Positions 44,456 to 56,520 are shown, counted from the stretch's first letter. The stretch is DNA of 64,000 bases from Candidatus Limnocylindria bacterium (GCA_036564905.1 DATCOD010000194.1:7240-71239), one strand, 5' to 3'. The notes: generated by a model not told the origin, from the sequence alone. Translations and numbers: made by a program.

Positions 44456-45267
44456 GCGGGCTGCGGGAAGGCGTCGACGCGTTCGAGGCCTCCCACCGCT
44501 GCGCGAAGCTCGTGGAGCGCGCGGATCCGCGCATCCGGGACGATCGTCCCGGCGGCGCCACCGTTCGTCCGGTCGAGCCAGATGCTGCGCAGCCCGGCAC
44601 GCCGCGCGCCCACGACGTCACGCTCAAGGCTATCTCCGACCATCACCGCCTCGGTGCGCTCGACGTCGAGCGCGTCCAGCGCCGCGCGGAAGATCAGCGG
44701 ATCGGGCTTGCCCGCGCCGACCTCGCCTGAGATCACGATCGCGGCGAATCGCGATGCGAGCGTGGTGGCCGCGAGCTTCTCGCGCTGCACGTCCGGCGCT
44801 CCGTTGGTGACGAGGGCGAGCCGGTGATCGCGGCCGACATCGTCGAGCGTCGCCTCGGCCTCGGGGTCGATCGGACACAGGGCCCGGCGCGCCGTGCGAT
44901 ACACCGCCACGAGCTCGTCGGCCAGCGCGCCATCCGTGATGCCCGCGGCCTCGAGTCCGCCGCTCCAGACCGCGCGGCGGAAGCCCGGCACGTACCGGCG
45001 CAGCGCCGCGAGGCCCGGCTGGTCGCCGGCGAACTCACCCCAGAGCGCCTCGCCCCACCAGATCCCCAGCGCATCCGCGTACGCGAACACTTCCGAGGAG
45101 CGGAAAAGTGCCTCCGCCGTCTCACCGGCCGCGACCTGAATGACACCGCCGTCGACCCCGGCCCGGCGGGCGGCGTGCGCGCTCGTCTGCTCCAGCGCAC
45201 GGAGGGTGGCCTCATCTTCGAGCAGCAGGGTGTTGTCGAGGTCGAAGAGGATCGCGCGGATCGGCAT
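44452..45267 (-). CDS. HAD-superfamily (subfamily IA-like) hydrolase, first gene of the his operon
   Basis: 'ILFDLDNTLL' (DxDxT motif I), 'LVTNG' (motif II), 'GKPDP...MVGDSLERDVVGARRAG' (motifs III/IV). Confidence 0.75.
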   Translation of the reverse strand: MPIRAILFDLDNTLLLEDEATLRALEQTSAHAARRAGVDGGVIQVAAGETAEALFRSSEVFAYADALGIWWGEALWGEFAGDQPGLAALRRYVPGFRRAVWSGGLEAAGITDGALADELVAVYRTARRALCPIDPEAEATLDDVGRDHRLALVTNGAPDVQREKLAATTLASRFAAIVISGEVGAGKPDPLIFRAALDALDVERTEAVMVGDSLERDVVGARRAGLRSIWLDRTNGGAAGTIVPDARIRALHELRAAVGGLERVDAFPQPA

Positions 45268-45344
45268 TGGTCGAGTTTAGGGAGCGGAGCGCGTGTCCGG
45301 CCGAGGGCTTGGCCGCGGTGCGCCGCAGTGGTACCGTAACGGCG

Positions 45345-45431
45345 ATGCGCTCCGTCGTCCTCGGCATCATCGTTATTGAGTCCCTTATCGGGGGCTTGAA
45401 CGACGCTGGGAGGCGCACCACCACCGCGTAG
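45345..45431 (+). promoter_or_regulatory. Leader peptide ORF 1 (MRSVVLGIIVIESLIGGLNDAGRRTTTA), a Val/Leu/Ile-rich attenuator leader
   Basis: Read directly from sequence. Eight of eleven codons after Met-Arg-Ser encode Val/Leu/Ile. The peptide overlaps the antiterminator segment 'ctgggaggc'. Confidence 0.7.
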
Positions 45432-45457
45432 CGAGAACAGAGACCGGAACCACCAGA

Positions 45458-45486
45458 GACCTCCCAGGACATGGGAGGTCTTTTTG
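45458..45486 (+). terminator. Rho-independent terminator of attenuator 1
   Basis: 'gacctccca ggacat tgggaggtc ttttt' is a perfect 9-bp GC-rich stem followed by a T-run. The 5' half can alternatively pair with 'tgggagg' inside the leader ORF, forming an antiterminator. Confidence 0.7.
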
Positions 45487-45584
45487 ATTCCGGGAAGTTC
45501 AGGCGAGGGAGGGCGTTGCCCGACCGAGCCGCAAGGGACCCACGAACGGAGCAAGCCGCAGCTGGCGAAGAGAGAGGGACACAA

Positions 45585-45779
45585 ATGGATGCCCGACGCG
45601 AGCTGGCCAAGCGACTGGCAAGGCTGGGTATGCACTTCGAGGGCGAGCGCCTCGACCATGCCGAGCGGATCGTCCACGCGCATGTTCCGCATCACACCTC
45701 GCTCACCGACCTGGTCCTCATGACGATCTGCGTCGAGGCCTACCGCAAGAGCGACCTCGACCTGCCGGCCTGGGTCTGA
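45585..45779 (+). CDS. Conserved small protein (64 aa), paralog of the ilvC-leuA intergenic small protein; function unknown
   Basis: 'MDARRELAKRLARLGMHFEGERLDHAERIVHAHVPHHTSLTDLVLMTICVEAYRKSDLDLPAWV'. RBS 'gagaggga' 7 nt upstream. About 50% identical to the 49659-49844 ORF. Confidence 0.65.
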   Translation: MDARRELAKRLARLGMHFEGERLDHAERIVHAHVPHHTSLTDLVLMTICVEAYRKSDLDLPAWV

Positions 45780-45789
45780 ACCGGTAGCC

Positions 45790-46380
45790 ATGGACGATCA
45801 GGCCGGGCGCACGTACGCGATCGCGTTCCTCGGCGAGGCGCGCACGCCGATCAGGACATCGGTGGTGCGGCTCGGCGCGGACGACGATCCGCGGGTCGTC
45901 GCGGAGTCGCTGCGCCACGCGGAGTCCGACCGGCTGAGCGATCCGATCCTGTCGGCGGGCCTAGGCGGGCCTCGGGATCCGGAGCGCTCCCTTCATCTGA
46001 CGGCGCTCCACGCGGAGCAGGCCGTCCGGCTCGGCCGCGCGTTGAACGGTCCCGGGCGCGTCACCGCGTTCGCGGACCTCGGCCCGTACTGCTTCGTGCT
46101 CGGCCGGCCGACGGAGGAGATCCGGATCTTCTGCCGGACGATCCTCGGGCCGCTGGCCGAGAGCGCGCAGCGCGACGAGCTGCGCACGCTCGAGGAATTC
46201 CTCCGGGCCCACGGGAGCGTGAACGCGGTCGCCCGCGCGCTCTTCCTGCACCGGAACACCGTGCGTCAGCGTCTCAAGCGGATCGGCGAGCTCACCGGCG
46301 CCGACCTCGAGGACGCCGACCAGCGCATGCAGCTCTACCTCGCGGTCCTCGGCCAGAACGCCCTGCGGGCGCTGGCGTGA
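45790..46380 (+). CDS. PucR/CdaR-family transcriptional regulator (C-terminal HTH_30)
   Basis: C-terminus 'LRTLEEFLRAHGSVNAVARALFLHRNTVRQRLKRIGELTG' is the PucR-type HTH. Starts 8 nt after the small-protein stop. Confidence 0.7.
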   Translation: MDDQAGRTYAIAFLGEARTPIRTSVVRLGADDDPRVVAESLRHAESDRLSDPILSAGLGGPRDPERSLHLTALHAEQAVRLGRALNGPGRVTAFADLGPYCFVLGRPTEEIRIFCRTILGPLAESAQRDELRTLEEFLRAHGSVNAVARALFLHRNTVRQRLKRIGELTGADLEDADQRMQLYLAVLGQNALRALA

Positions 46381-46460
46381 TCGGGACTGTGCAGAGTGCA
46401 CCGACTTCCAGGTGGAGCGTTGACGCGACCGCGGTCCGTCCGGCACTGTCCACCTTCCTG

Positions 46461-46535
46461 ATGCGGAACCTCGTGGTCGTCGTCCTTATCGGCATCGTCC
46501 TCATTGAGGACGAGGGGAGACGGCTGGGAGGCTAG
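46461..46535 (+). promoter_or_regulatory. Leader peptide ORF 2 (MRNLVVVVLIGIVLIEDEGRRLGG), the ilvB attenuator leader
   Basis: Twelve of fourteen codons after Met-Arg-Asn are Val/Leu/Ile. The stop lies inside the 'ctgggaggctag' antiterminator arm. Confidence 0.75.
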
Positions 46536-46562
46536 CGGCACACACCACGGACCATGCGAGCA

Positions 46563-46593
46563 AGGCCTCCCGGCAACGGGAGGCCTCTTTGTT
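46563..46593 (+). terminator. Rho-independent terminator of the ilvB attenuator
   Basis: 'aggcctccc ggcaac gggaggcct ctttgttg'. The alternative pairing of 'gcctccc' with 'gggaggc' in the leader gives an antiterminator. Confidence 0.7.
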
Positions 46594-46627
46594 GTCCAGG
46601 ACAGAGATGGATGAAGGAGGCACCGCG

Positions 46628-48337
46628 ATGGCGACACTTGCGACGACCGAGCTGCCCGAGGCGAGCACCGTCGTTCACCGCGGCGCCGACCTGGTCTGGC
46701 GGGCCCTCGAGCACGCCGGCGCGGACGTGGCGTTCGGCTACCCCGGTGGCGCGTGCCTGCCGCTGTACGACGCGCTCCCCGATCACCCGCGCGTGCATCA
46801 CGTCCTCGTGCGCCACGAGCAGGGCGCCGCGCACATGGCCGACGGCTACGCGCGCGCGACCGGACGGGTCGGCGTGTGCGTCGCCACCTCCGGCCCCGGC
46901 GCGACCAATCTCGTGACCGGGCTCGCCTGCGCATACATGGACAGCGTGGCGCTGGTCGCGATCACCGGCCAGGTCTCCACGCCGATGATGGGCCGGGACG
47001 CCTTCCAGGAGACCGACGTGCTCGGCATGGTCGGGCCGATCACCAAGCATTCGTTCCTCGTCGAGCGGGTCGAGGACATCGAGCCCACGATCGCGCGCGC
47101 GTTCGAGGTGGCGCGCGCGGGCCGCCCCGGACCGGTGGTGGTCGACATCCCGAAGGACATCCAGCTCCGGACCGCCACGGCGCGCTCCCGCCCGACAGAC
47201 CCGACGACCGCTCCGCAGGGCGCCGACGCGAGCGAGCTCGATCGGGCGGCGGCGCTGCTCGCGTCCGCGCGGCGGCCGGTGATCATCGCCGGCCACGGCG
47301 TGCGCCTCGGGCGCGCCCACCGCGAGCTGCGCGCGCTCGCCGAGCGCATCGACGCGCCGGTCGTGACCACACTGCTCGGCATCGGCGCGATCGCCGAGGA
47401 CCATGCGCTCGCGGCCGGGATGCTCGGGATGCACGGCAGCGCCAACGCGAACCGCATGGTGAACGACGCGGACGTGATCCTGGGCGTGGGGCTGCGCTTC
47501 GACGATCGCGTGACCGGGAAGATCAGCGCCTTCGCGCCGAACGCCAAGATCATCCATGCCGACCTCGACGCGACCCAGATCGGCAAGAACGTGCCCACCG
47601 CGATCGGCATCGTTGCCGACGCGGGAGCGGTGCTGTTCGCGCTCGCCGCCCGCCTCCAGCGCGTGTCGCGGCCGGACTGGTCCGGACGTCTCGCGACCGC
47701 TCGTTCCCGCCCGCGGCTCGCGGCATACGAGGACCGGGTCGAGCTCCCGCCGCGCCTGGTCATCCGCGCGATCCGTGAGACCGCGAGCGACGACGCGTAC
47801 TTCGTCGCCGACGTGGGTCAGCATCAGATGTGGGCCGCGCAGCATCTGCGCCTCACGAACCCGGACCGGTTCCTCACCTCGGGCGGCCTCGGCGCGATGG
47901 GCTATGCCCTGCCGGCCGCGATCGGCGCGCAGATGGGCCGGCCGACGTCAGAGGTGTGGGCCATCGCCGGCGATGGGGGCGCGCAGATGACGTTCCAGGA
48001 GCTCGGGACCGCGGTGCAGGAGCGCACGCCGGTGAAGCTCGCGATCATGAACAACGGCTACCTCGGGATGGTCCGCCAGTGGCAGCAGCTGTTCCACGAC
48101 GGTCGGATCTCACAGACCCCGATCAGCAGCCCGGACTACGTGAAGCTCGCCGACGCGTACGGCGTGCTCGGCATCATGGTCGACCGTCGCGCCGACCTCG
48201 GCCCCTCGCTCGCGCGCGCTCGCGCGCACCAGGGGCCCGTCGTGCTCGACATCCGCATCGAGCGCGAGGCCAACGTGTGGCCGATCGTGCCGCCTGGCGG
48301 CGCGAACGCGGACCTCATCGAAGAGCCGGTCTCGTGA
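46628..48337 (+). CDS. ilvB: Acetolactate synthase (AHAS) large subunit
   Basis: 'GYPGGACLPLYDAL', 'RHEQGAAHMADGYARATGRVGVCVATSGPGATNLVTG', TPP motif 'GDGGAQMTFQELGTA...NNGYLGMVRQWQ'. RBS 'gaaggagg' 8 nt upstream of the ATG. Confidence 0.9.
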   Translation: MATLATTELPEASTVVHRGADLVWRALEHAGADVAFGYPGGACLPLYDALPDHPRVHHVLVRHEQGAAHMADGYARATGRVGVCVATSGPGATNLVTGLACAYMDSVALVAITGQVSTPMMGRDAFQETDVLGMVGPITKHSFLVERVEDIEPTIARAFEVARAGRPGPVVVDIPKDIQLRTATARSRPTDPTTAPQGADASELDRAAALLASARRPVIIAGHGVRLGRAHRELRALAERIDAPVVTTLLGIGAIAEDHALAAGMLGMHGSANANRMVNDADVILGVGLRFDDRVTGKISAFAPNAKIIHADLDATQIGKNVPTAIGIVADAGAVLFALAARLQRVSRPDWSGRLATARSRPRLAAYEDRVELPPRLVIRAIRETASDDAYFVADVGQHQMWAAQHLRLTNPDRFLTSGGLGAMGYALPAAIGAQMGRPTSEVWAIAGDGGAQMTFQELGTAVQERTPVKLAIMNNGYLGMVRQWQQLFHDGRISQTPISSPDYVKLADAYGVLGIMVDRRADLGPSLARARAHQGPVVLDIRIEREANVWPIVPPGGANADLIEEPVS

Positions 48338-48591
48338 CCGACCCGCAGCACACCTTCGAGCTCACGGTCGACGCCGTGCCCGGCGCGATCGAGCGCGTGC
48401 TGTCGGTCGTGCGCCGCAGGCGGCTCGGCCTGCGCTCGTTCCGGGCGGACGCCGGCAGTCAGGGGCAGTGGAACGTCCGCATCGAGGCCGGCGCCGTCCC
48501 AACGGAAGCGGCCCTTGCGCTCAGACAATTCGCATCGCTCATCGACGTTCGCAACGCGCGCCTGTCCGATGGCGATCGCACCGCGAGCTAA
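48334..48591 (+). CDS. ilvN: Acetolactate synthase small subunit, short ACT-only form (85 aa)
   Basis: 'HTFELTVDAVPGAIERVLSVVRRRRLGLRSF' is the ACT domain of IlvN/IlvM. GTGA overlap with ilvB. Confidence 0.65.
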   Translation: MTDPQHTFELTVDAVPGAIERVLSVVRRRRLGLRSFRADAGSQGQWNVRIEAGAVPTEAALALRQFASLIDVRNARLSDGDRTAS

Positions 48592-48609
48592 AGAAAGCAG
48601 GAGGAAGAG

Positions 48610-49659
48610 ATGGCCACCATCTATTACGACAAGGACGCGGATCCGCGGGCGCTGGCCGGCAAGACGATCGCCGTGATCGGCTACGGGAGCCAGGGCCACG
48701 CCCACGCCCAGAACCTGCGCGACAGCGGGCACTCCGTCGTCATCGGCCTGGCCGCCGGCAGCAAGAGCTGGGCGACCGCCGAGCGGGACGGCTTCGACGT
48801 CCGCGAGGTTGCGGACGCCGCGCGCAACGCCGACGTGATCGTCATCCTCGTGCCTGACCCGAAACATCGGTCGGTCTATGAACGGATCGCGCCGTCGCTC
48901 GGGCGCGGGCGGACCATCGTCGTGGCGCACGCGTTCTCCGTCCATTTCAAGGAGATCGTCGCGTCGCCCGACATCGACGTCGTGCTCATCGCGCCGAAGG
49001 CCCCGGGGCACCGGATGCGCGAGCTCTTCGTCGAGGGCAAGGGCGTGCCCGCGCTCGTCGCGGTGCACCAGGACGCCAGCGGCCACGCCAAGCAGACGGC
49101 GCTCGCGTACGCGCAGGCCGTCGGCTCGACGCGCGCGGGCGTCATCCAGACCACGTTCGCGGAGGAGGTCGAGACCGATCTCTTCGGCGAGCAGACGGTC
49201 CTGTGCGGCGGTATCTCCGAGCTGGTGAAGGCCGGTTTCGAGACCCTGGTCGAAGCCGGCTACCAGCCGGAGATCGCGTACTTCGAGTGCCTGAACGAGA
49301 TGAAGCTCATCGTCGACCTCATGTACGAGGGCGGGCTCTCGTACATGCGGTACTCGGTGAGCGACACGGCCGAGTACGGCGACTACGTGTCCGGCAAGCG
49401 GGTCATCGACGCGCGCGTTCGGCAGACCATGCGTGACGTGCTCGCCGAGATCAAGGACGGCAGCTTCGCCAAGCGGTGGATCGCCGAGGCCCGGGCGGGT
49501 GCGCCCGAGCTGCTCGCGACGCGTGCCCGCGAGCAGGACTCCCAGATCGAGCGGGTCGGACGATCGCTCCGCTCGATGATGCCCTGGCTCCCGAAGCGCG
49601 AGTTCGGCCAGCCCGCGGCGCCGGACGCGCCGAAGCGCGAGACCGCGGGGGTCGCGTAA
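48610..49659 (+). CDS. ilvC: Ketol-acid reductoisomerase
   Basis: '[21 protein letters not shown]', 'LVPD', 'GHRMRELF', '[17 protein letters not shown]'. Strong RBS 'gcaggaggaagag'. Confidence 0.95.
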
Positions 49660-49844
49660 TGGAGGCGTTCCGCGACCGGCTCGCGCGGCTCGGCATGCGC
49701 TTCGGCGACGAGCAGCTCGGCCACGCCCACTCGCTGGTCACGCGCTACGGATTCGTCCCGGAGGAGCTCACCGACATCCAGCTCATGACCATCTGCGTCG
49801 AGGCCTACCGCCATCCGGATTCCGACCTGCCGTTGTGGATCTGA
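49659..49844 (+). CDS. Conserved small protein (61 aa), paralog of the 45585-45779 ORF; translationally coupled between ilvC and leuA
   Basis: '[61 protein letters not shown]'. Its ATG overlaps the ilvC TAA (TAATG). Confidence 0.65.
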   Translation: MEAFRDRLARLGMRFGDEQLGHAHSLVTRYGFVPEELTDIQLMTICVEAYRHPDSDLPLWI

Positions 49845-53268
<3,424 letters not shown>

Positions 53269-53272
<4 letters not shown>

Positions 53273-54513
53273 CCAGCACCGTCGCGGTCGCGACGCGATC
53301 CATGACCGTCGCGGACGCGGCCGTGGCCATCGCCGGGCAGGTCGAGCGCACGCCGCTCCTCGCGTCGCCGGATCTGTCCGCGCTCGCGGGCTGCGAGATC
53401 CATCTCAAGCTCGAGAACCTGCAGCGCACCGGTGCGTTCAAGCTGCGCGGCGCGCTCGCCCGGCTCCTCGCGCTCTCCAGCGAGGAGCGCGCGCGCGGCG
53501 TCGTCACCGCGTCCGCGGGCAACCACGGGCAGGGCGTCGCCGTCGGCGCCGCTGCGCTCGGGATCCCCGCCTGCGTCGTGCTCCCGCGCGGCGTGCCGCT
53601 GGCGAAGCTCACCGCGATCCAGCGCGCCGGCGCGGAGGTCGTGATCACCGGGTCGGACTACGACGAGGCGTTCGCCGCGGCGCGCGAGCTCGCCGCGGAG
53701 CGCCGCGCCGTCTACATCCACGCGTTCGACGATCCGGCCGTCATCGCGGGACAGGGGACCGTCGCTCGCGAGATGCTCGAGGACCGCCCCGACCTCGACG
53801 CCATCGTCGTGCCGGTCGGCGGTGGCGGGCTCCTCGCCGGGTCGGCCCTCGCGATCGCCGAGGCCGGCGCGTCCGTCGCGCTCGTCGGTGTCCAGGCCGC
53901 CGGCGCGACCGCGTTCGCCGACGCCGTCCGGAGCGGATCGATCGCCGCGGGCGGCAGCGCCACCATCGCCGACGGCATCGCGGTCCGCCGGCCGGCGGAG
54001 CGTACGGTGGCGATCGCGCGAGCGCACCGGGCGACGATGCGGATCGTCACGGATGAGGCGATCGCGCGCGCGATGGTGCTGCTGCTCGAGCGCCACAAGC
54101 TCCTCGCGGAGGCCGCGGGCGCCGCGGGCGTCGCCGCGCTGCTCGACGGAGCGGCCGAGCTCGCGGGCAAGCGGGTCGGCATCATCGTGAGCGGTGGCAA
54201 CATCGACCCGAACCTGCTCGGGAAGGTCGTGCAGCAGGGCCTCGCGAGCGCGGGCCGCTACCTCGCGTTCCGCACCTGGCTCGACGACCGTCCGGGACAG
54301 CTGCACGAGCTCACCGGCATCCTGGGCGGCGAGCACATCAACATCCTGCACGTCGGCATCCATCGCGTCGGGCCGTACACCGCGCTCGGGCGCGTGGGCC
54401 TCGATGTGATCGTCGATACCCGCGATGCCGCGCACGCCCAGGAGGTCCTGGCACTCGTGCGGCGCTCCGGCTTCCCGGCCGAGCAGCTCATCGACGTCCA
54501 GCCGGAGCGGTGA
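53269..54513 (+). CDS. ilvA: Threonine ammonia-lyase (biosynthetic, single regulatory domain)
   Basis: PLP-Lys '[18 protein letters not shown]', '[10 protein letters not shown]', 'GGGGLLAG', and a C-terminal ACT-like domain. ATGA overlap with ilvD. Confidence 0.9.
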
Positions 54514-54532
54514 GCTGACCGGCCGCACGCTC

Positions 54533-55918
54533 GTGGCGAAGGTGTGGGACGAGCACGTCGTCCGGCGCGCCCCGGGCGAGCCAGATCTCCTCTACGTCGA
54601 TCTGCATCTCGTGCACGAGGTGACCTCGCCGCAGGCGTTCGACGGCCTGCGCCTCGCCGGCCGCCGCGTGCGCCGTCCCGATCTCACGCTCGCGACCGCG
54701 GACCACAACATCCCGACCGTCCTGGACCGGCCGGTCGCCGACCCGGTCTCGGCGCGCCAGATCGACGCGCTGACCCGGAACTGCGCGGAGTTCGGCGTCC
54801 GCCTGTACCCGATGGGCGATGCCCGTCAGGGCATCGTGCACGTCATCGGGCCGCAGCTCGGTCTCAGCCAGCCGGGGATGGTCATCGTGTGTGGCGACAG
54901 CCACACCGCGACGCACGGCGCGCTCGGGGCGATCGCCTTCGGGATCGGGACCAGCGACGTCGAGCACGTGCTCGCGACGCAAACGATCCCGCGGACGCCT
55001 CCGCGCACGATGGCGGTCACGATCGACGGCCGGACGCCCGCGGACGTGAGCGCGAAGGACATCATCCTCGGCGTCATCGCGCGCATCGGGATCGGCGGCG
55101 GCACCGGCCACATCATCGAGTACCGCGGCGACGCGATCCGGGCCCTATCGATGGAGGGGCGGATGACCGTCTGCAACATGTCCATCGAGGCCGGCGCGCG
55201 CGCGGGGCTGATCGCGCCCGATGACACCACGTTCGCCTACCTGCGTGGCCGGATGCACGCGCCGGCCGGATCGGATTGGGACCGCGCGGTCGAGCACTGG
55301 CGCGGCCTCGCGACCGACGCCGACGCCTCGTTCGACCGCGAGGTGCGCATCGCCGCGGCCGACCTCCGGCCGTACGTGACCTGGGGCACGAATCCCGCGC
55401 AGGCCGTCGGCATCGACGGCCGGGTGCCCGACCCCGAAGCGCTCGCGGGCGATGCGGCACGGGAGAGCGCGCGGCGCGCGCTCGCGTACATGGATCTCCG
55501 CCCCGGCACGGCGATGCGCGACATCGCGGTCGATTCGGTGTTCCTGGGCTCGTGCACGAACGGGCGGATCGAGGACCTCCGGGCCGCGGCCGACGTGCTC
55601 CGCGGCCGCCGGGTCCGCGCCGGACTACGCGCGCTCGCGGTACCCGGGTCGATGGCCGTGAAGGCCCAGGCCGAGAGCGAGGGCCTCGATCGGATCTTCG
55701 TCGCGGCGGGGTTCGAGTGGCGCAGCGCCGGCTGCTCGATGTGCCTCGGGATGAACGACGACGTCGCCGCGCCGGGCGAGCGGGTCGCCTCGACGTCGAA
55801 CCGCAACTTCGAGGGCCGCCAGGGGCCGGGCGCGCGCACGCACCTCGTGTCCCCGGCCGTCGCCGCCGCCACCGCCGTGGCCGGACACCTCGCGACTCCG
55901 GCGGATCTCGCGCGATGA
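54533..55918 (+). CDS. leuC: 3-isopropylmalate dehydratase large subunit
   Basis: N-terminus '[10 protein letters not shown]' matches the LeuC N-terminus. '[24 protein letters not shown]', '[11 protein letters not shown]', '[11 protein letters not shown]', '[12 protein letters not shown]' are aconitase-family Fe-S ligand motifs. Confidence 0.9.
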
Positions 55919-56520
55919 GAGCCACCTCGCGCGTGACCGGCCGCGCGCTGCCGCTCGACCGCCGCGACGTCGACACCGATCAGATCATCCCGAGCGACTG
56001 GCTGAAGCGCGTCGAGCGCACCGGCTACGGCGCGGGGCTGTTCGCCGCGTGGCGAACGGATCCGGCATTCGCGCTCAACGACCCGCGGTTCGCGGGCGCG
56101 ACCGTCCTGGTGACCGGAGCGAACTTCGGCTGCGGGAGCTCGCGCGAGCACGCGGCCTGGGCGCTCGAGGACTGGGGCTTCCGCGCGATCGTCGCGCCGA
56201 GCTTCGCCGACATCTTCCGCTCGAACTGCCTCGCCGTCGGCCTCGTGCTCGCGGAGCTTCCGGAGGCCGACATCGCGCGCGTGCTCGCGGCGGTCGCGCG
56301 CGACCCATCGATCGAGGTCAGCGTCGACGTCGACCGGCGGATCGTCGAGGTGCCGGCGCTCGGCTACGCCGCGGCGTTCCCGCTGGACGACGCGTCGCGC
56401 GCGCGCCTGCTCGCGGGACAGGACGAGATCGACCTGAGCCTCGCCCACGCGGGCGAGATCGCGAGCTACGAGGCGCGGCGGCACGGGTGGCTGCCGCGCC
56501 TGCGGACCCCGTCGGGCTAG
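55915..56520 (+). CDS. leuD: 3-isopropylmalate dehydratase small subunit
   Basis: '[14 protein letters not shown]' and '[17 protein letters not shown]'. ATGA overlap with leuC. Confidence 0.9.

What the first reader, a model, noticed from the sequence alone, without database searches (positions are those of the whole stretch)
46461..46593. Second, paralogous attenuator directly upstream of ilvB: tandem attenuation
The second leader (MRNLVVVVLIGIVLIEDEGRRLGG) and its terminator (aggcctccc...gggaggcct CTTTGTTG) share the same design as the first, including the 'ctgggaggc' antiterminator arm that overlaps the leader stop. Two attenuators 1.1 kb apart, the first controlling a regulator and the second controlling ilvBNC-leuA-ilvDA-leuCD, suggest a feed-forward circuit. 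Leader-peptide attenuation of ilvB is known in Actinobacteria. The duplication is the unusual part.
Basis: partly seen in the sequence, partly recalled or inferred. Interest (0 to 1): 0.5.

Follow-up and report, generated by a model that had tools for sequence, protein, structure and literature searches.

The report
Paired BCAA attenuators flanking a regulator
Just upstream of the ilvB operon of an uncultured soil Chloroflexota bacterium lies a real leader-peptide attenuator, and a sister copy 1.1 kb upstream controls a small DNA-binding regulator; this pairing is conserved across the whole class and probably forms a two-stage starvation switch.

Summary
At 46461-46535 a 24-codon ORF (MRNLVVVVLIGIVLIEDEGRRLGG) is followed by a 10-bp GC-rich hairpin and U-tract (46563-46594). 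The arm CUGGGAGGCU, which abuts the stop codon, can pair with the 5' arm of that hairpin. Across 29 relatives the terminator is 97.9% paired and the antiterminator 93.9% paired, both with compensatory changes. A covariance model built only from leader-2-type sequences hits leader 1 (45345-45490) end to end (E=4.5e-11) and nothing else on the + strand of the window.

The interpretation needs three corrections:
- The organism is Chloroflexota, class Ca. Limnocylindria, not Actinobacteria.
- The two elements are not tandem in one leader. Each has its own conserved promoter.
- The pairing is not a local duplication. It recurs in about 44 related loci.

New here: a conserved palindrome (GTGCA-N3-TGCAC, 46387-46403) sits about 18 nt upstream of the -35 of the leader-2 promoter in every subgroup. 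It is a likely operator for the PucR-like regulator that attenuator 1 controls, which would give a feed-forward amplifier. A parallel Met/Cys version exists in the same class. Attenuation itself is classical; the circuit is a new variant. Every functional step is inferred from sequence.

The parts
45309..45337 (+). Putative promoter P1 of leader 1: -35 TTGGCC (45309-14), 17-nt spacer, extended -10 TGG-TACCGT (45329-37). The ATG starts 8 nt after the last base of the -10, so the transcript is probably leaderless.
   Evidence: Sequence. TT of the -35, TG-N-TACCGT and the distance to GATG are conserved in 10 relatives. The transcription start is inferred and not mapped.
45345..45431 (+). Leader ORF 1, MRSVVLGIIVIESLIGGLNDAGRRTTTA*. 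It has 10 Val/Ile/Leu among codons 4-15, including the rare codons GTT, ATT, CTT and TTG.
   Evidence: Conserved as an ORF with a BCAA run upstream of the PucR-like gene in relatives.
45406..45413 (+). Region 2 of attenuator 1 (CUGGGAGG). It pairs with 45460-45467, the 5' arm of terminator 1, to form the antiterminator.
   Evidence: 97.1% of cells paired in 26 sequences, with 2 pairs showing compensatory changes. Slid controls give at most 72%.
45455..45490 (+). Terminator 1: stem AGAGACCUCCCA / UGGGAGGUCUUU followed by a U-tract (UUUUUGAUU).
   Evidence: 97.2% paired, 3 pairs with compensatory changes.
45585..45779 (+). ORFA, a 64-aa protein of unknown family and first gene of the operon behind attenuator 1. 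It is a paralogue of ORFB at 49659-49844.
   Evidence: 55-58% identity between ORFA and ORFB. No Pfam or NCBIfam hit. Homologues only in Limnocylindria. Predicted three-helix fold with no structural match.
45790..46380 (+). Short PucR-type transcription regulator (196 aa): a GGDEF-like N-terminal half plus a C-terminal HTH_30 domain.
   Evidence: Pfam PF13556, E=2.1e-23. 326 homologues, those that carry an organism name being Limnocylindria/Chloroflexota. PDB sequence relatives 9f80 (Rv2242/MabR) and 3onq. Structure model and 3onq as top fold hit.
46387..46403 (.). Palindrome CTGTGCAGAGTGCACCG (consensus CTGTGCAC-N-GTGCACAG, core GTGCA-N3-TGCAC). Candidate operator, centred about 61 nt upstream of the inferred P2 start.
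   Evidence: Nearly invariant in 13 close relatives within an otherwise variable spacer. Present at the same distance from TTGAC in all subgroups. 43 of 68 motif sites in 511 kb of loci lie 14-22 nt upstream of a TTGAC. It is the only exact core match in the window. Which protein binds it is inferred.
46420..46449 (+). Putative promoter P2 of leader 2: -35 TTGACG (46420-25), 18-nt spacer, -10 CACTGT (46444-49). The ATG lies 12 nt after the last base of the -10.
   Evidence: TTGAC and A..GT of the -10 are invariant in 13 relatives. TTGAC and a -10 at the same spacing are present in all 38 leader-2 upstream regions. The consensus scan did not list it, because the -10 is weak by E. coli rules.
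46461..46535 (+). Leader ORF 2, MRNLVVVVLIGIVLIEDEGRRLGG*. It has 11 Val/Ile/Leu among codons 4-15, including the rare codons CTT and ATT. No Shine-Dalgarno sequence precedes it.
   Evidence: In 29 relatives ATG is at least 90% conserved, TAG is invariant, and indels in the ORF are in multiples of three. 40 leader-2-type peptides are 23-28 aa long and 36-50% BCAA, against a 23% background.
46523..46533 (+). Region 2 of attenuator 2 (GCUGGGAGGCU). It pairs with 46564-46574 to form the antiterminator and runs into the stop codon.
   Evidence: 93.9% paired in 29 sequences with 3 pairs showing compensatory changes. The pair at columns 74/140 is C-G, U-G or U-A, and column 140 also covaries with its terminator partner (column 147). 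It is the MFE pairing of the nascent RNA that ends at region 3.
46563..46594 (+). Terminator 2: AGGCCUCCCG-GCAA-CGGGAGGCCU followed by CUUUGUUG.
   Evidence: 97.9% paired, 3 pairs with compensatory changes, slid controls at most 66%.
46628..56520 (+). Regulated operon: ilvB (46628-48337), ilvN (about 48334-48591), ilvC (48610-49659), ORFB (49659-49844), leuA (49848-51602), ilvD (to 53272), ilvA (53269-54513), leuC (to 55918), leuD (to 56520).
   Evidence: Pfam assignments. Synteny in relatives. No further attenuator-like hit in this stretch. Operon continuity is inferred from short or overlapping gene junctions.

Best explanation
The element at 46461-46594 is a classical ribosome-mediated transcription attenuator at the head of the ilvBNC-ORFB-leuA-ilvDA-leuCD operon.

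Proposed mechanism of attenuator 2:
- RNA polymerase starts at its own promoter P2, a few bases before the AUG, and transcribes a 24-codon leader rich in Val, Ile and Leu codons.
- When charged BCAA-tRNAs are plentiful, the ribosome runs to the UAG stop. There it covers region 2 (GCUGGGAGGCU), so region 3 pairs with region 4, the GC-rich hairpin plus U-tract forms, and transcription stops before ilvB.
- When any BCAA-tRNA is scarce, the ribosome stalls in codons 4-15. Region 2 stays free and pairs with region 3 as it emerges, the terminator cannot form, and the operon is transcribed.

A paralogous attenuator (45345-45490) with its own promoter P1 applies the same logic to a two-gene operon encoding ORFA and a short PucR-type regulator.

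Proposed link between the two: the regulator binds the conserved palindrome centred near -61 of P2 and activates it. BCAA-tRNA shortage would then act twice, on initiation (through the regulator) and on readthrough (directly). That is a coherent feed-forward, multiplicative switch.

What is shown: ORFs, helices, covariation, promoter and palindrome conservation, and synteny across the class Limnocylindria.

What is inferred: transcription start sites, ribosome stalling, termination, which protein binds the palindrome, and the sign of its effect.
For: Anatomy and fold statistics.

Structure in relatives: terminator and antiterminator helices keep pairing in 29 leader-2 and 26 leader-1 homologues, with compensatory changes and low slid controls. 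The invariant GGGAGG core is read in different frames in the two leaders (A-G-R versus L-G-G), so the constraint is on the RNA.

Leader ORF: length, start, stop and frame are conserved, while the peptide sequence drifts within V/I/L. Rare BCAA codons are enriched. ATT is 1 of 111 Ile codons in six neighbouring genes, yet occurs once in each leader, and the ATT of leader 2 lies in a nearly invariant stretch in 13 close relatives.

Folding of intermediates: region 2 pairs with the BCAA-codon run in 25/29 and 18/26 single-sequence folds. The nascent RNA ending at region 3 folds into the antiterminator.

Promoters: each leader has its own conserved promoter.

Operator: the palindrome sits at a fixed distance from the P2 -35 in every subgroup. 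This includes loci where the regulator gene lies about 3 kb from leader 2. In one subgroup the same palindrome lies inside the P1 spacer, which suggests autoregulation.

Conservation of the pairing: both attenuators flank a PucR-like gene in about 44 loci.

Relatedness of the two.
Against: - There are no expression, transcription-start or ribosome-profiling data; everything is sequence inference.
- Thermodynamically the terminator state beats the antiterminator state by 14-16 kcal/mol, even with the first 45-55 nt masked. The model therefore needs co-transcriptional kinetics, as in the E. coli trp attenuator (my own knowledge).
- The 1:2 'protector' helix drawn from the window's own fold is not conserved column by column: 63.1% paired against 62.6% in shuffles.
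- With no ribosome, the nascent RNA already prefers 2:3 in about half of the sequences, so the untranslated default state is unclear.
- The U-tract of terminator 2 is interrupted (CUUUGUUG).
- In Streptomyces coelicolor, mutating the candidate regulatory codons of a comparable ilvB leader had no effect on regulation (PMC1262725). Anatomy alone can mislead.
- The palindrome-regulator link rests only on co-localisation. A related motif also precedes the Met-type second leaders, so a shared factor that is not locally encoded is possible.
Confidence: 0.7

Rival explanations
1. True tandem (in-series) attenuation. One transcript from P1 passes attenuator 1, ORFA and the regulator gene, then must also pass attenuator 2 to reach ilvB. 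P2 is weak or absent.
For: No terminator-like site lies between the regulator's stop codon (46380) and leader 2, so readthrough from P1 must reach attenuator 2. L007 does carry a third attenuator in series, between ORFA and the regulator gene.
Against: TTGAC, an 18-nt spacer and a -10 are conserved just upstream of leader 2 in all subgroups. In the L014-type loci leader 2 lies about 3 kb from the regulator, separated by unrelated genes, yet keeps the same promoter and palindrome. Leader 2 has no Shine-Dalgarno sequence and looks built for (near-)leaderless initiation. That would work poorly from inside a long P1 transcript (inference).
Confidence: 0.12
2. Two independent attenuators with no feed-forward link. 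The PucR-like protein regulates something else, or represses, and the palindrome is bound by another factor.
For: The link is by co-localisation only. A similar half-palindromic motif (GTGCA-ACC-TGCCC) precedes the Met-type second leaders, which fits a shared factor. No ligand or target is known for this protein subfamily.
Against: The motif is almost confined to these promoters: 43 of 68 sites lie 14-22 nt upstream of a TTGAC, the spacing seen at P2, and about 10 more in the P1 spacer of one subgroup. There is only one exact site in the 64-kb window. The regulator gene keeps its position next to ilv operons across the class. The Met-type paralogues are about 48% identical to the window protein, which could explain related motifs.
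Confidence: 0.25
3. The two attenuators are convergent and not paralogous. The same design arose twice because BCAA codons and an SD/anti-SD-like GGGAGG/CCUCCC hairpin are easy solutions.
For: The strongest shared elements are functional ones: BCAA codons and the GGGAGG/CCUCCC cores. Met/Cys leaders with entirely different peptides use the same terminator core.
Against: A full-length model hit (positions 1-144) at 42.9 bits. The best local alignment lies in the coding part, CGTCGTCC..TCGGCATC.TC.T.ATTGAG, and beats 1000/1000 shuffles. A recent extra copy in L007 shows that these units do duplicate.
Confidence: 0.2
4. Chance ORF plus the ordinary terminator of the regulator gene; no attenuation.
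For: The hairpin lies downstream of the regulator gene and would also end its transcript.
Against: ORF length, start, stop, frame and BCAA content are conserved. The alternative helix covaries. A conserved promoter sits between the gene and the ORF. The same unit occurs far from any regulator gene in L014-type loci.
Confidence: 0.03

Closest known systems
Classical leader-peptide attenuators of BCAA operons (E. coli ivbL-ilvBN, ilvL-ilvGMEDA, leuL-leuABCD)
   Same: A short ORF with a run of Val/Ile/Leu codons. Region 2 sits at or before the stop codon and can pair with the 5' arm of an intrinsic terminator. Rare regulatory codons are used. (The E. coli mechanism is from established knowledge; the anatomy here is.)
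   Different: No detectable sequence relationship: there is no Rfam hit at gathering score, and only E>5 hits to Phe_leader. The phylum differs (Chloroflexota). The leader is probably (near-)leaderless and has no Shine-Dalgarno sequence. A second copy controls a regulator gene.
Candidate ilvB leader peptides with terminators in Actinobacteria (Corynebacterium, Mycobacterium, Streptomyces; PMC1262725, PMC11857589, PMC10272879)
   Same: High-GC Gram-positive-type genomes, the ilvBNC operon, and a short V/I/L-rich uORF overlapping or preceding a terminator.
   Different: Those are single elements. No regulator gene under a sister attenuator is mentioned in the passages of PMC1262725 that were read. 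In S. coelicolor, mutating the regulatory codons had no effect (PMC1262725). The window is not actinobacterial.
Tandem attenuators of the Salmonella mgtCBR leader (PMC3641672)
   Same: Two short ORF-dependent attenuators act on one locus.
   Different: In mgtCBR both ORFs lie in one long leader of one transcript and sense different signals. Here the two units are 1.1 kb apart, each has its own promoter, both sense BCAA, and a regulator gene lies between them.
B. subtilis anti-TRAP (rtpA) circuit (PMC10327191, PMC4027176)
   Same: A sensor of tRNA charging controls synthesis of a regulator, and that regulator modulates an attenuated amino-acid operon. This is two-layer sensing of the same amino acid.
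   Different: There the sensor is a T-box and the regulator is a protein antagonist of the RNA-binding protein TRAP. Here the sensor is a leader peptide, and the regulator is a DNA-binding PucR-type protein presumed to act on initiation.
PucR/CdaR-family regulators (PucR, GabR PMC7652997, MabR PMC11617747)
   Same: A C-terminal HTH_30 domain preceded by a GGDEF-like domain. Several family members are activators (GabR, PMC7652997; NCBIfam names for AdeR and PmfR).
   Different: The protein is only 196 aa and lacks an N-terminal sensory domain such as MabR's globin-like one (PMC11617747). It is placed under a leader-peptide attenuator. No characterised member regulates BCAA synthesis to my knowledge, and the literature search found none.

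Membership tests
Ribosome-mediated (leader-peptide) transcription attenuator | A short translatable ORF with a cluster of codons for the end-product amino acid(s) | tested here: met
   24 codons with 11 V/I/L in codons 4-15. Conserved in length, frame, start, stop and BCAA content in 40 relatives.
Ribosome-mediated (leader-peptide) transcription attenuator | An intrinsic terminator (GC-rich hairpin plus U-tract) between the leader ORF and the first structural gene | tested here: met
   46563-46594. 97.9% paired with compensatory changes. The U-tract is interrupted (CUUUGUUG).
Ribosome-mediated (leader-peptide) transcription attenuator | A mutually exclusive antiterminator helix whose 5' arm is covered by a ribosome that reaches the end of the leader ORF | tested here: met
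   46523-46533 pairs with 46564-46574 and the arm abuts the UAG. 93.9% paired, 3 covarying pairs. It is the MFE pairing of the nascent RNA.
Ribosome-mediated (leader-peptide) transcription attenuator | A 1:2 helix that sequesters region 2 when the leader is not translated | tested here: inconclusive
   Present in single-sequence folds of 25/29 relatives, but not conserved column by column and not always favoured over 2:3.
Ribosome-mediated (leader-peptide) transcription attenuator | Amino-acid-dependent readthrough in vivo or in vitro | not testable with these tools
   Needs reporter fusions, Term-seq or in vitro coupled transcription-translation.
Rfam leader families (Leu_leader, Phe_leader, Thr_leader, etc.) | Score at or above the family's gathering threshold | tested here: not met
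   0 hits at gathering score in the window. The best hit is Phe_leader at 18.2 bits against a threshold of 55.
Tandem attenuators in a single leader (mgtCBR type) | Both short ORFs and their structures lie in one 5' leader of one transcript | tested here: not met
   The two are 1.1 kb apart, with two genes and a conserved promoter between them.
PucR/CdaR family transcription regulator (the gene behind attenuator 1) | C-terminal PucR-type HTH (PF13556) | tested here: met
   E=2.1e-23, 82.3 bits against a cut-off of 27.
PucR/CdaR family transcription regulator (the gene behind attenuator 1) | N-terminal sensory domain of full-length members (globin-like in MabR) | tested here: not met
   The protein is 196 aa. 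Only HTH-type families were found, and relatives carry PF17853 plus PF13556. It matches only the C-terminal part of the PDB relatives: residues 148-254 of 9f80 and 147-247 of 3onq.

The most novel reading that the evidence does not exclude
Limnocylindria use a reusable two-stage module for amino-acid biosynthesis. An amino-acid-specific leader-peptide attenuator controls synthesis of a minimal PucR-type activator. That activator turns on, from an operator near -61, the promoter of a second attenuator of the same specificity at the head of the biosynthetic operon. tRNA charging would therefore be read twice and multiplied. The module exists in at least a BCAA version and a Met/Cys version, and it spreads by duplication of the attenuator unit, as in the third copy in L007. 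The lineage-specific ORFA/ORFB three-helix proteins may be further parts of the circuit.
Probability: 0.4. Interest if true: 0.75.

Novelty: new variant of a known kind. Interest (0 to 1): 0.55.

Why it matters
Leader-peptide attenuation is textbook biology, but it has been described almost only for enzyme operons of Proteobacteria, Firmicutes and Actinobacteria. Three things are different here.

- It is well supported by comparative evidence in an uncultured, abundant soil and freshwater class of Chloroflexota.
- It controls a transcription factor gene.
- It is wired in a conserved pair with a second attenuator and a candidate operator.

If the regulator activates P2, this is a natural coherent feed-forward loop in which a single signal, tRNA charging, gates both initiation and elongation of the same operon. 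That gives a steep, multiplicative response.

It would also assign a first function and a candidate DNA motif to a large orphan subfamily of short PucR-like proteins, and it provides compact parts for high-GC synthetic biology. The parallel Met/Cys module suggests a general regulatory strategy in the lineage.

Tried and rejected
- Rfam, at gathering score and at permissive thresholds: no family. The weak Phe_leader, ctRNA and HIV frameshift hits only reflect the hairpin.
- A palindrome ACCGCGGT/GCCGCGGT that I noticed in both promoter spacers: dropped, because the spacer is not conserved in relatives.
- The 1:2 helix taken from the window's own fold: its pairs are not conserved by column. I kept only the weaker per-sequence statement.
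- The operator palindrome upstream of P1 in the window: absent. It occurs in the P1 spacer only in a distant subgroup.
- TTG at 46589 as an alternative ilvB start using the terminator's GGGAGG as a Shine-Dalgarno sequence: rejected. The stretch between the terminator and the ATG varies in length and sequence, while GAAGGAGG plus ATGGCGAC is conserved.
- ORFA/ORFB identity: no Pfam, NCBIfam or PDB sequence hit and no fold match. The PDB sequence hit was to a de novo designed protein, and the Foldseek hits had E>2.
- Fold search with the regulator model gave only the expected PucR-family entry 3onq at E=1.8e-3. The HTH half of the model has low confidence.
- Literature searches for Limnocylindria or Chloroflexi leader peptides, or for PucR-BCAA links, found nothing specific.
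- I did not use the metagenome scan, the representative-protein search or the third homology search, because the genome loci already gave enough relatives.

Full report
**1. What is in the sequence**

Reading 44800-47000 and listing ORFs gives this layout on the + strand:
- A divergent hisZ and HAD-hydrolase pair ends at 45267 (Pfam).
- A short ORF runs 45345-45431 (MRSVVLGIIVIESLIGGLNDAGRRTTTA).
- A hairpin with a U-tract lies at 45455-45490.
- A 64-aa ORF (ORFA) runs 45585-45779.
- A 196-aa protein with a PucR C-terminal HTH runs 45790-46380 (PF13556, E=2.1e-23).
- The reported ORF runs 46461-46535 (MRNLVVVVLIGIVLIEDEGRRLGG).
- The hairpin AGGCCTCCCG-GCAA-CGGGAGGCCT lies at 46563-46586, followed by CTTTGTTG.
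- ilvB starts at 46628.

Downstream genes are ilvN, ilvC, a 61-aa paralogue of ORFA (ORFB), leuA, ilvD, ilvA, leuC and leuD.

**2. Is it more than chance?**

- Leader 2 folds with z=-4.24 and leader 1 with z=-3.63. No shuffle out of 200 did as well for either.
- CCTCCC-N3-9-GGGAGG occurs only at the two terminators, against 0.07 expected.
- Rfam has no family for either element.

**3. Source organism and relatives**

Homologues of the PucR-like protein that carry an organism name are annotated Candidatus Limnocylindria or Chloroflexota; the rest are unnamed metagenome sequences. A scan of one genome per species returned 80 loci, almost all from that class. The window is therefore from Chloroflexota, not Actinobacteria.

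tblastn on these loci shows two arrangements:
- The order regulator-ilvB-(ilvN)-ilvC-ORFB-leuA in the closer subgroups.
- The order regulator, a different TPP enzyme, ilvC and a LeuA-like gene in a more distant subgroup.

**4. Conservation of both attenuators**

My own scan for BCAA-rich short ORFs followed by terminators found one such unit upstream of the regulator gene, and one between it and the ilv genes, in about 30 loci.

A covariance model built only from 29 leader-2-type sequences gave these results:
- In the window it scores leader 2 at 131.8 bits and leader 1 at 42.9 bits over its full length (E=4.5e-11). It hits nothing else on the + strand of the 64 kb; the only other matches are weak antisense hits on the two terminator hairpins.
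- In the loci it finds leader-2-type units at 92-144 bits and leader-1-type units at 31-67 bits upstream of the regulator gene. Both are present in about 44 loci.
- Loci that lack one unit are mostly cut by contig ends.

The pairing is therefore an old, conserved architecture of the class and not a local duplication.

L007 even has a third unit (MLALVLVVIVIPVLIGGSELGRPIAAR plus a hairpin) between ORFA and the regulator gene.

**5. RNA structure evidence**

On a MAFFT alignment of 29 leader-2 units:
- The terminator is 97.9% paired, with compensatory changes at three pairs.
- The antiterminator (46523-46533 with 46564-46574) is 93.9% paired, with three covarying pairs.
- The nucleotide at column 140 covaries with both its antiterminator partner and its terminator partner. 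That is the signature of two mutually exclusive helices.
- Slid controls drop to 66% or less.

For 26 leader-1 units the values are 97.2% and 97.1%, again with compensatory changes.

The invariant GGGAGG core is read as A-G-R in leader 1 and as L-G-G in leader 2, so the constraint acts on the RNA and not on the peptide.

The upstream 1:2 helix drawn from the window's own fold is not conserved by column. However, in single-sequence folds region 2 pairs with the BCAA-codon run in 25/29 and 18/26 cases.

Thermodynamically the terminator state is 14-16 kcal/mol more stable than the antiterminator state. The nascent RNA that ends at region 3 does fold into the antiterminator. The switch must therefore be kinetic, as in the classical trp case (my own knowledge).

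**6. Leader ORF evidence**

- Across relatives the ATG is at least 90% conserved and the TAG invariant, and indels are in threes.
- The length is 23-28 codons, and BCAA content is 36-50% against a 23% background.
- The actual residues drift among V, I and L. That is expected if the codons matter and the peptide does not.
- Both leaders use BCAA codons that are rare in neighbouring genes: ATT 0.9%, CTT 4.8%, GTT 2.5%, TTG 0.9% of their families.

**7. Promoters and a candidate operator**

Alignment of the regulator-ilvB spacer in 13 close relatives shows three conserved features:
- An invariant TTGAC, an 18-nt spacer and cA..GT.
- A GATG about 12 nt after the -10.
- Further upstream, a nearly invariant palindrome CTGTGCAC-N-GTGCACAG (window 46387-46403).

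The rest of the spacer is variable.

The same core, GTGCA-N3-TGCAC, lies 17-18 nt upstream of TTGAC in all 38 leader-2 upstream regions examined. This includes loci where leader 2 is about 3 kb away from the regulator gene.

Of 68 sites matching the degenerate core in 511 kb of loci:
- 43 lie 14-22 nt upstream of a TTGAC, the spacing seen at P2, one per locus.
- About 10 more lie inside the -35/-10 spacer of the leader-1 promoter in one distant subgroup.

The window has a single exact site.

Leader 1 has its own conserved TTGGCC-17-TGnTACCGT, with the ATG 8 nt after the last base of the -10. Neither leader has a Shine-Dalgarno sequence. I infer that both are translated from leaderless or nearly leaderless transcripts.

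The palindrome centre, about -61 from the inferred start, is a typical activator position (established knowledge of class I activation). Several PucR-family members are activators (PMC7652997; NCBIfam names). This is why I favour activation, but neither binding nor sign is shown.

**8. The regulator and the small proteins**

The 196-aa regulator corresponds to the C-terminal GGDEF-like plus HTH part of PucR-type regulators such as MabR (PMC11617747). It lacks an N-terminal sensory domain.

ORFA and ORFB:
- They are 55-58% identical to each other.
- They are restricted to this class.
- They are predicted to form three helices.
- They match no known family or fold.

Attenuator 1 directly precedes the regulator gene in most lineages. 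ORFA is inserted between them only in the window's subgroup.

**9. A parallel module**

Paralogues of the regulator (46-50% identity) are not next to ilv genes. Each has these neighbours:
- Upstream, a Cys/Met-rich leader, for example MTYRCCAMAMPEAHCTCVCAMGDHGLGGGS, with the same GGCCUCCC/GGGAGGCC terminator.
- About 3 kb downstream, a Met-rich leader (MTQRVSMSMPMAPLAGPATRLGG) ahead of a PLP enzyme that looks like threonine synthase.
- A related motif, GTGCA-ACC-TGCCC, at the same place upstream of that second promoter.

**10. Comparison with what is known**

- The attenuators work like the classical E. coli ilv/leu leaders and like the candidate actinobacterial ilvB leaders (PMC1262725, PMC11857589), but show no sequence membership in any Rfam family.
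- 'Tandem attenuators' in the strict sense (Salmonella mgtCBR, PMC3641672) share one leader, and these do not.
- The nearest logical analogue is the B. subtilis anti-TRAP circuit, where a tRNA-charging sensor controls a regulator of an attenuated operon (PMC10327191, PMC4027176).
- I found no report of leader peptides in Limnocylindria or of a PucR-type regulator tied to BCAA synthesis.

**11. Verdict**

Attenuator anatomy, paralogy and regulator control are supported. The 'tandem' label and the actinobacterial context are not. The feed-forward idea is strengthened by a candidate operator but remains unproven.
- The attenuator itself is an ordinary kind of element in a new lineage.
- The conserved attenuator-regulator-operator-attenuator circuit, and its Met/Cys twin, are a new variant worth an experiment.

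Noticed in passing
L054 3720-3864 and 7496-7625; likewise L039, L046, L050, L059, L062, L068, L069: Paralogues of the PucR-like regulator (46-50% identity) are preceded by a Cys/Met-rich leader ORF plus a GGCCUCCC/GGGAGGCC terminator. About 3 kb downstream lies a Met-rich leader (M.QR.SMSMPMAP..) ahead of a threonine-synthase-like PLP enzyme. This looks like a Met/Cys version of the same two-attenuator module.
   Followed up: partly
window 45585-45779 (ORFA) and 49659-49844 (ORFB): Two paralogous 61-64-aa proteins, 55-58% identical: one behind attenuator 1 and one between ilvC and leuA. They are conserved only in Limnocylindria, are predicted to form three helices, and match no Pfam, NCBIfam, PDB sequence or fold. 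Function unknown; possibly part of the circuit.
   Followed up: partly
L007 3847-3992: A third BCAA leader (MLALVLVVIVIPVLIGGSELGRPIAAR*) with a hairpin lies between ORFA and the regulator gene, giving three attenuator units in 1.3 kb. This shows that the unit duplicates.
   Followed up: partly
L027 2118, L042 3685, L045 3686, L048 2825, L055 35, L067 298, L070 835, L071 26: In one distant subgroup the palindrome (GTGCG-NNN-CGCAC) lies inside the -35/-10 spacer of the leader-1 promoter. This suggests autorepression of the regulator operon. It is absent from the window's P1.
   Followed up: partly
window 45491-45584: About 95 extra bases separate terminator 1 from the ORFA start. In close relatives ORFA starts about 15-20 nt after the terminator, behind a GGGGAG Shine-Dalgarno sequence. 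This is an insertion of unknown meaning.
   Followed up: no
L041 3513-3390 (- strand): A further leader-like ORF (MSHAVAVIVIVGSIQEAGSGGAPS) with the same type of terminator points away from the regulator operon, towards a hisZ-like gene (2361-1246). The covariance model scores it at 45.6 bits.
   Followed up: no
window 46536-46552 and the aligned columns in relatives: The bases just after the leader-2 stop (UAGCGGCACACAC) are highly conserved, although they lie outside all three helices I tested. The reason is unknown; it could be stop-codon context, a pause site or another pairing.
   Followed up: no
L022, L055, L060 (record titles): Three loci with the same module are labelled Dormiibacterota, Eisenbacteria and Acidiferrales. 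This is probably mis-binning of Limnocylindria contigs, or else horizontal transfer.
   Followed up: no
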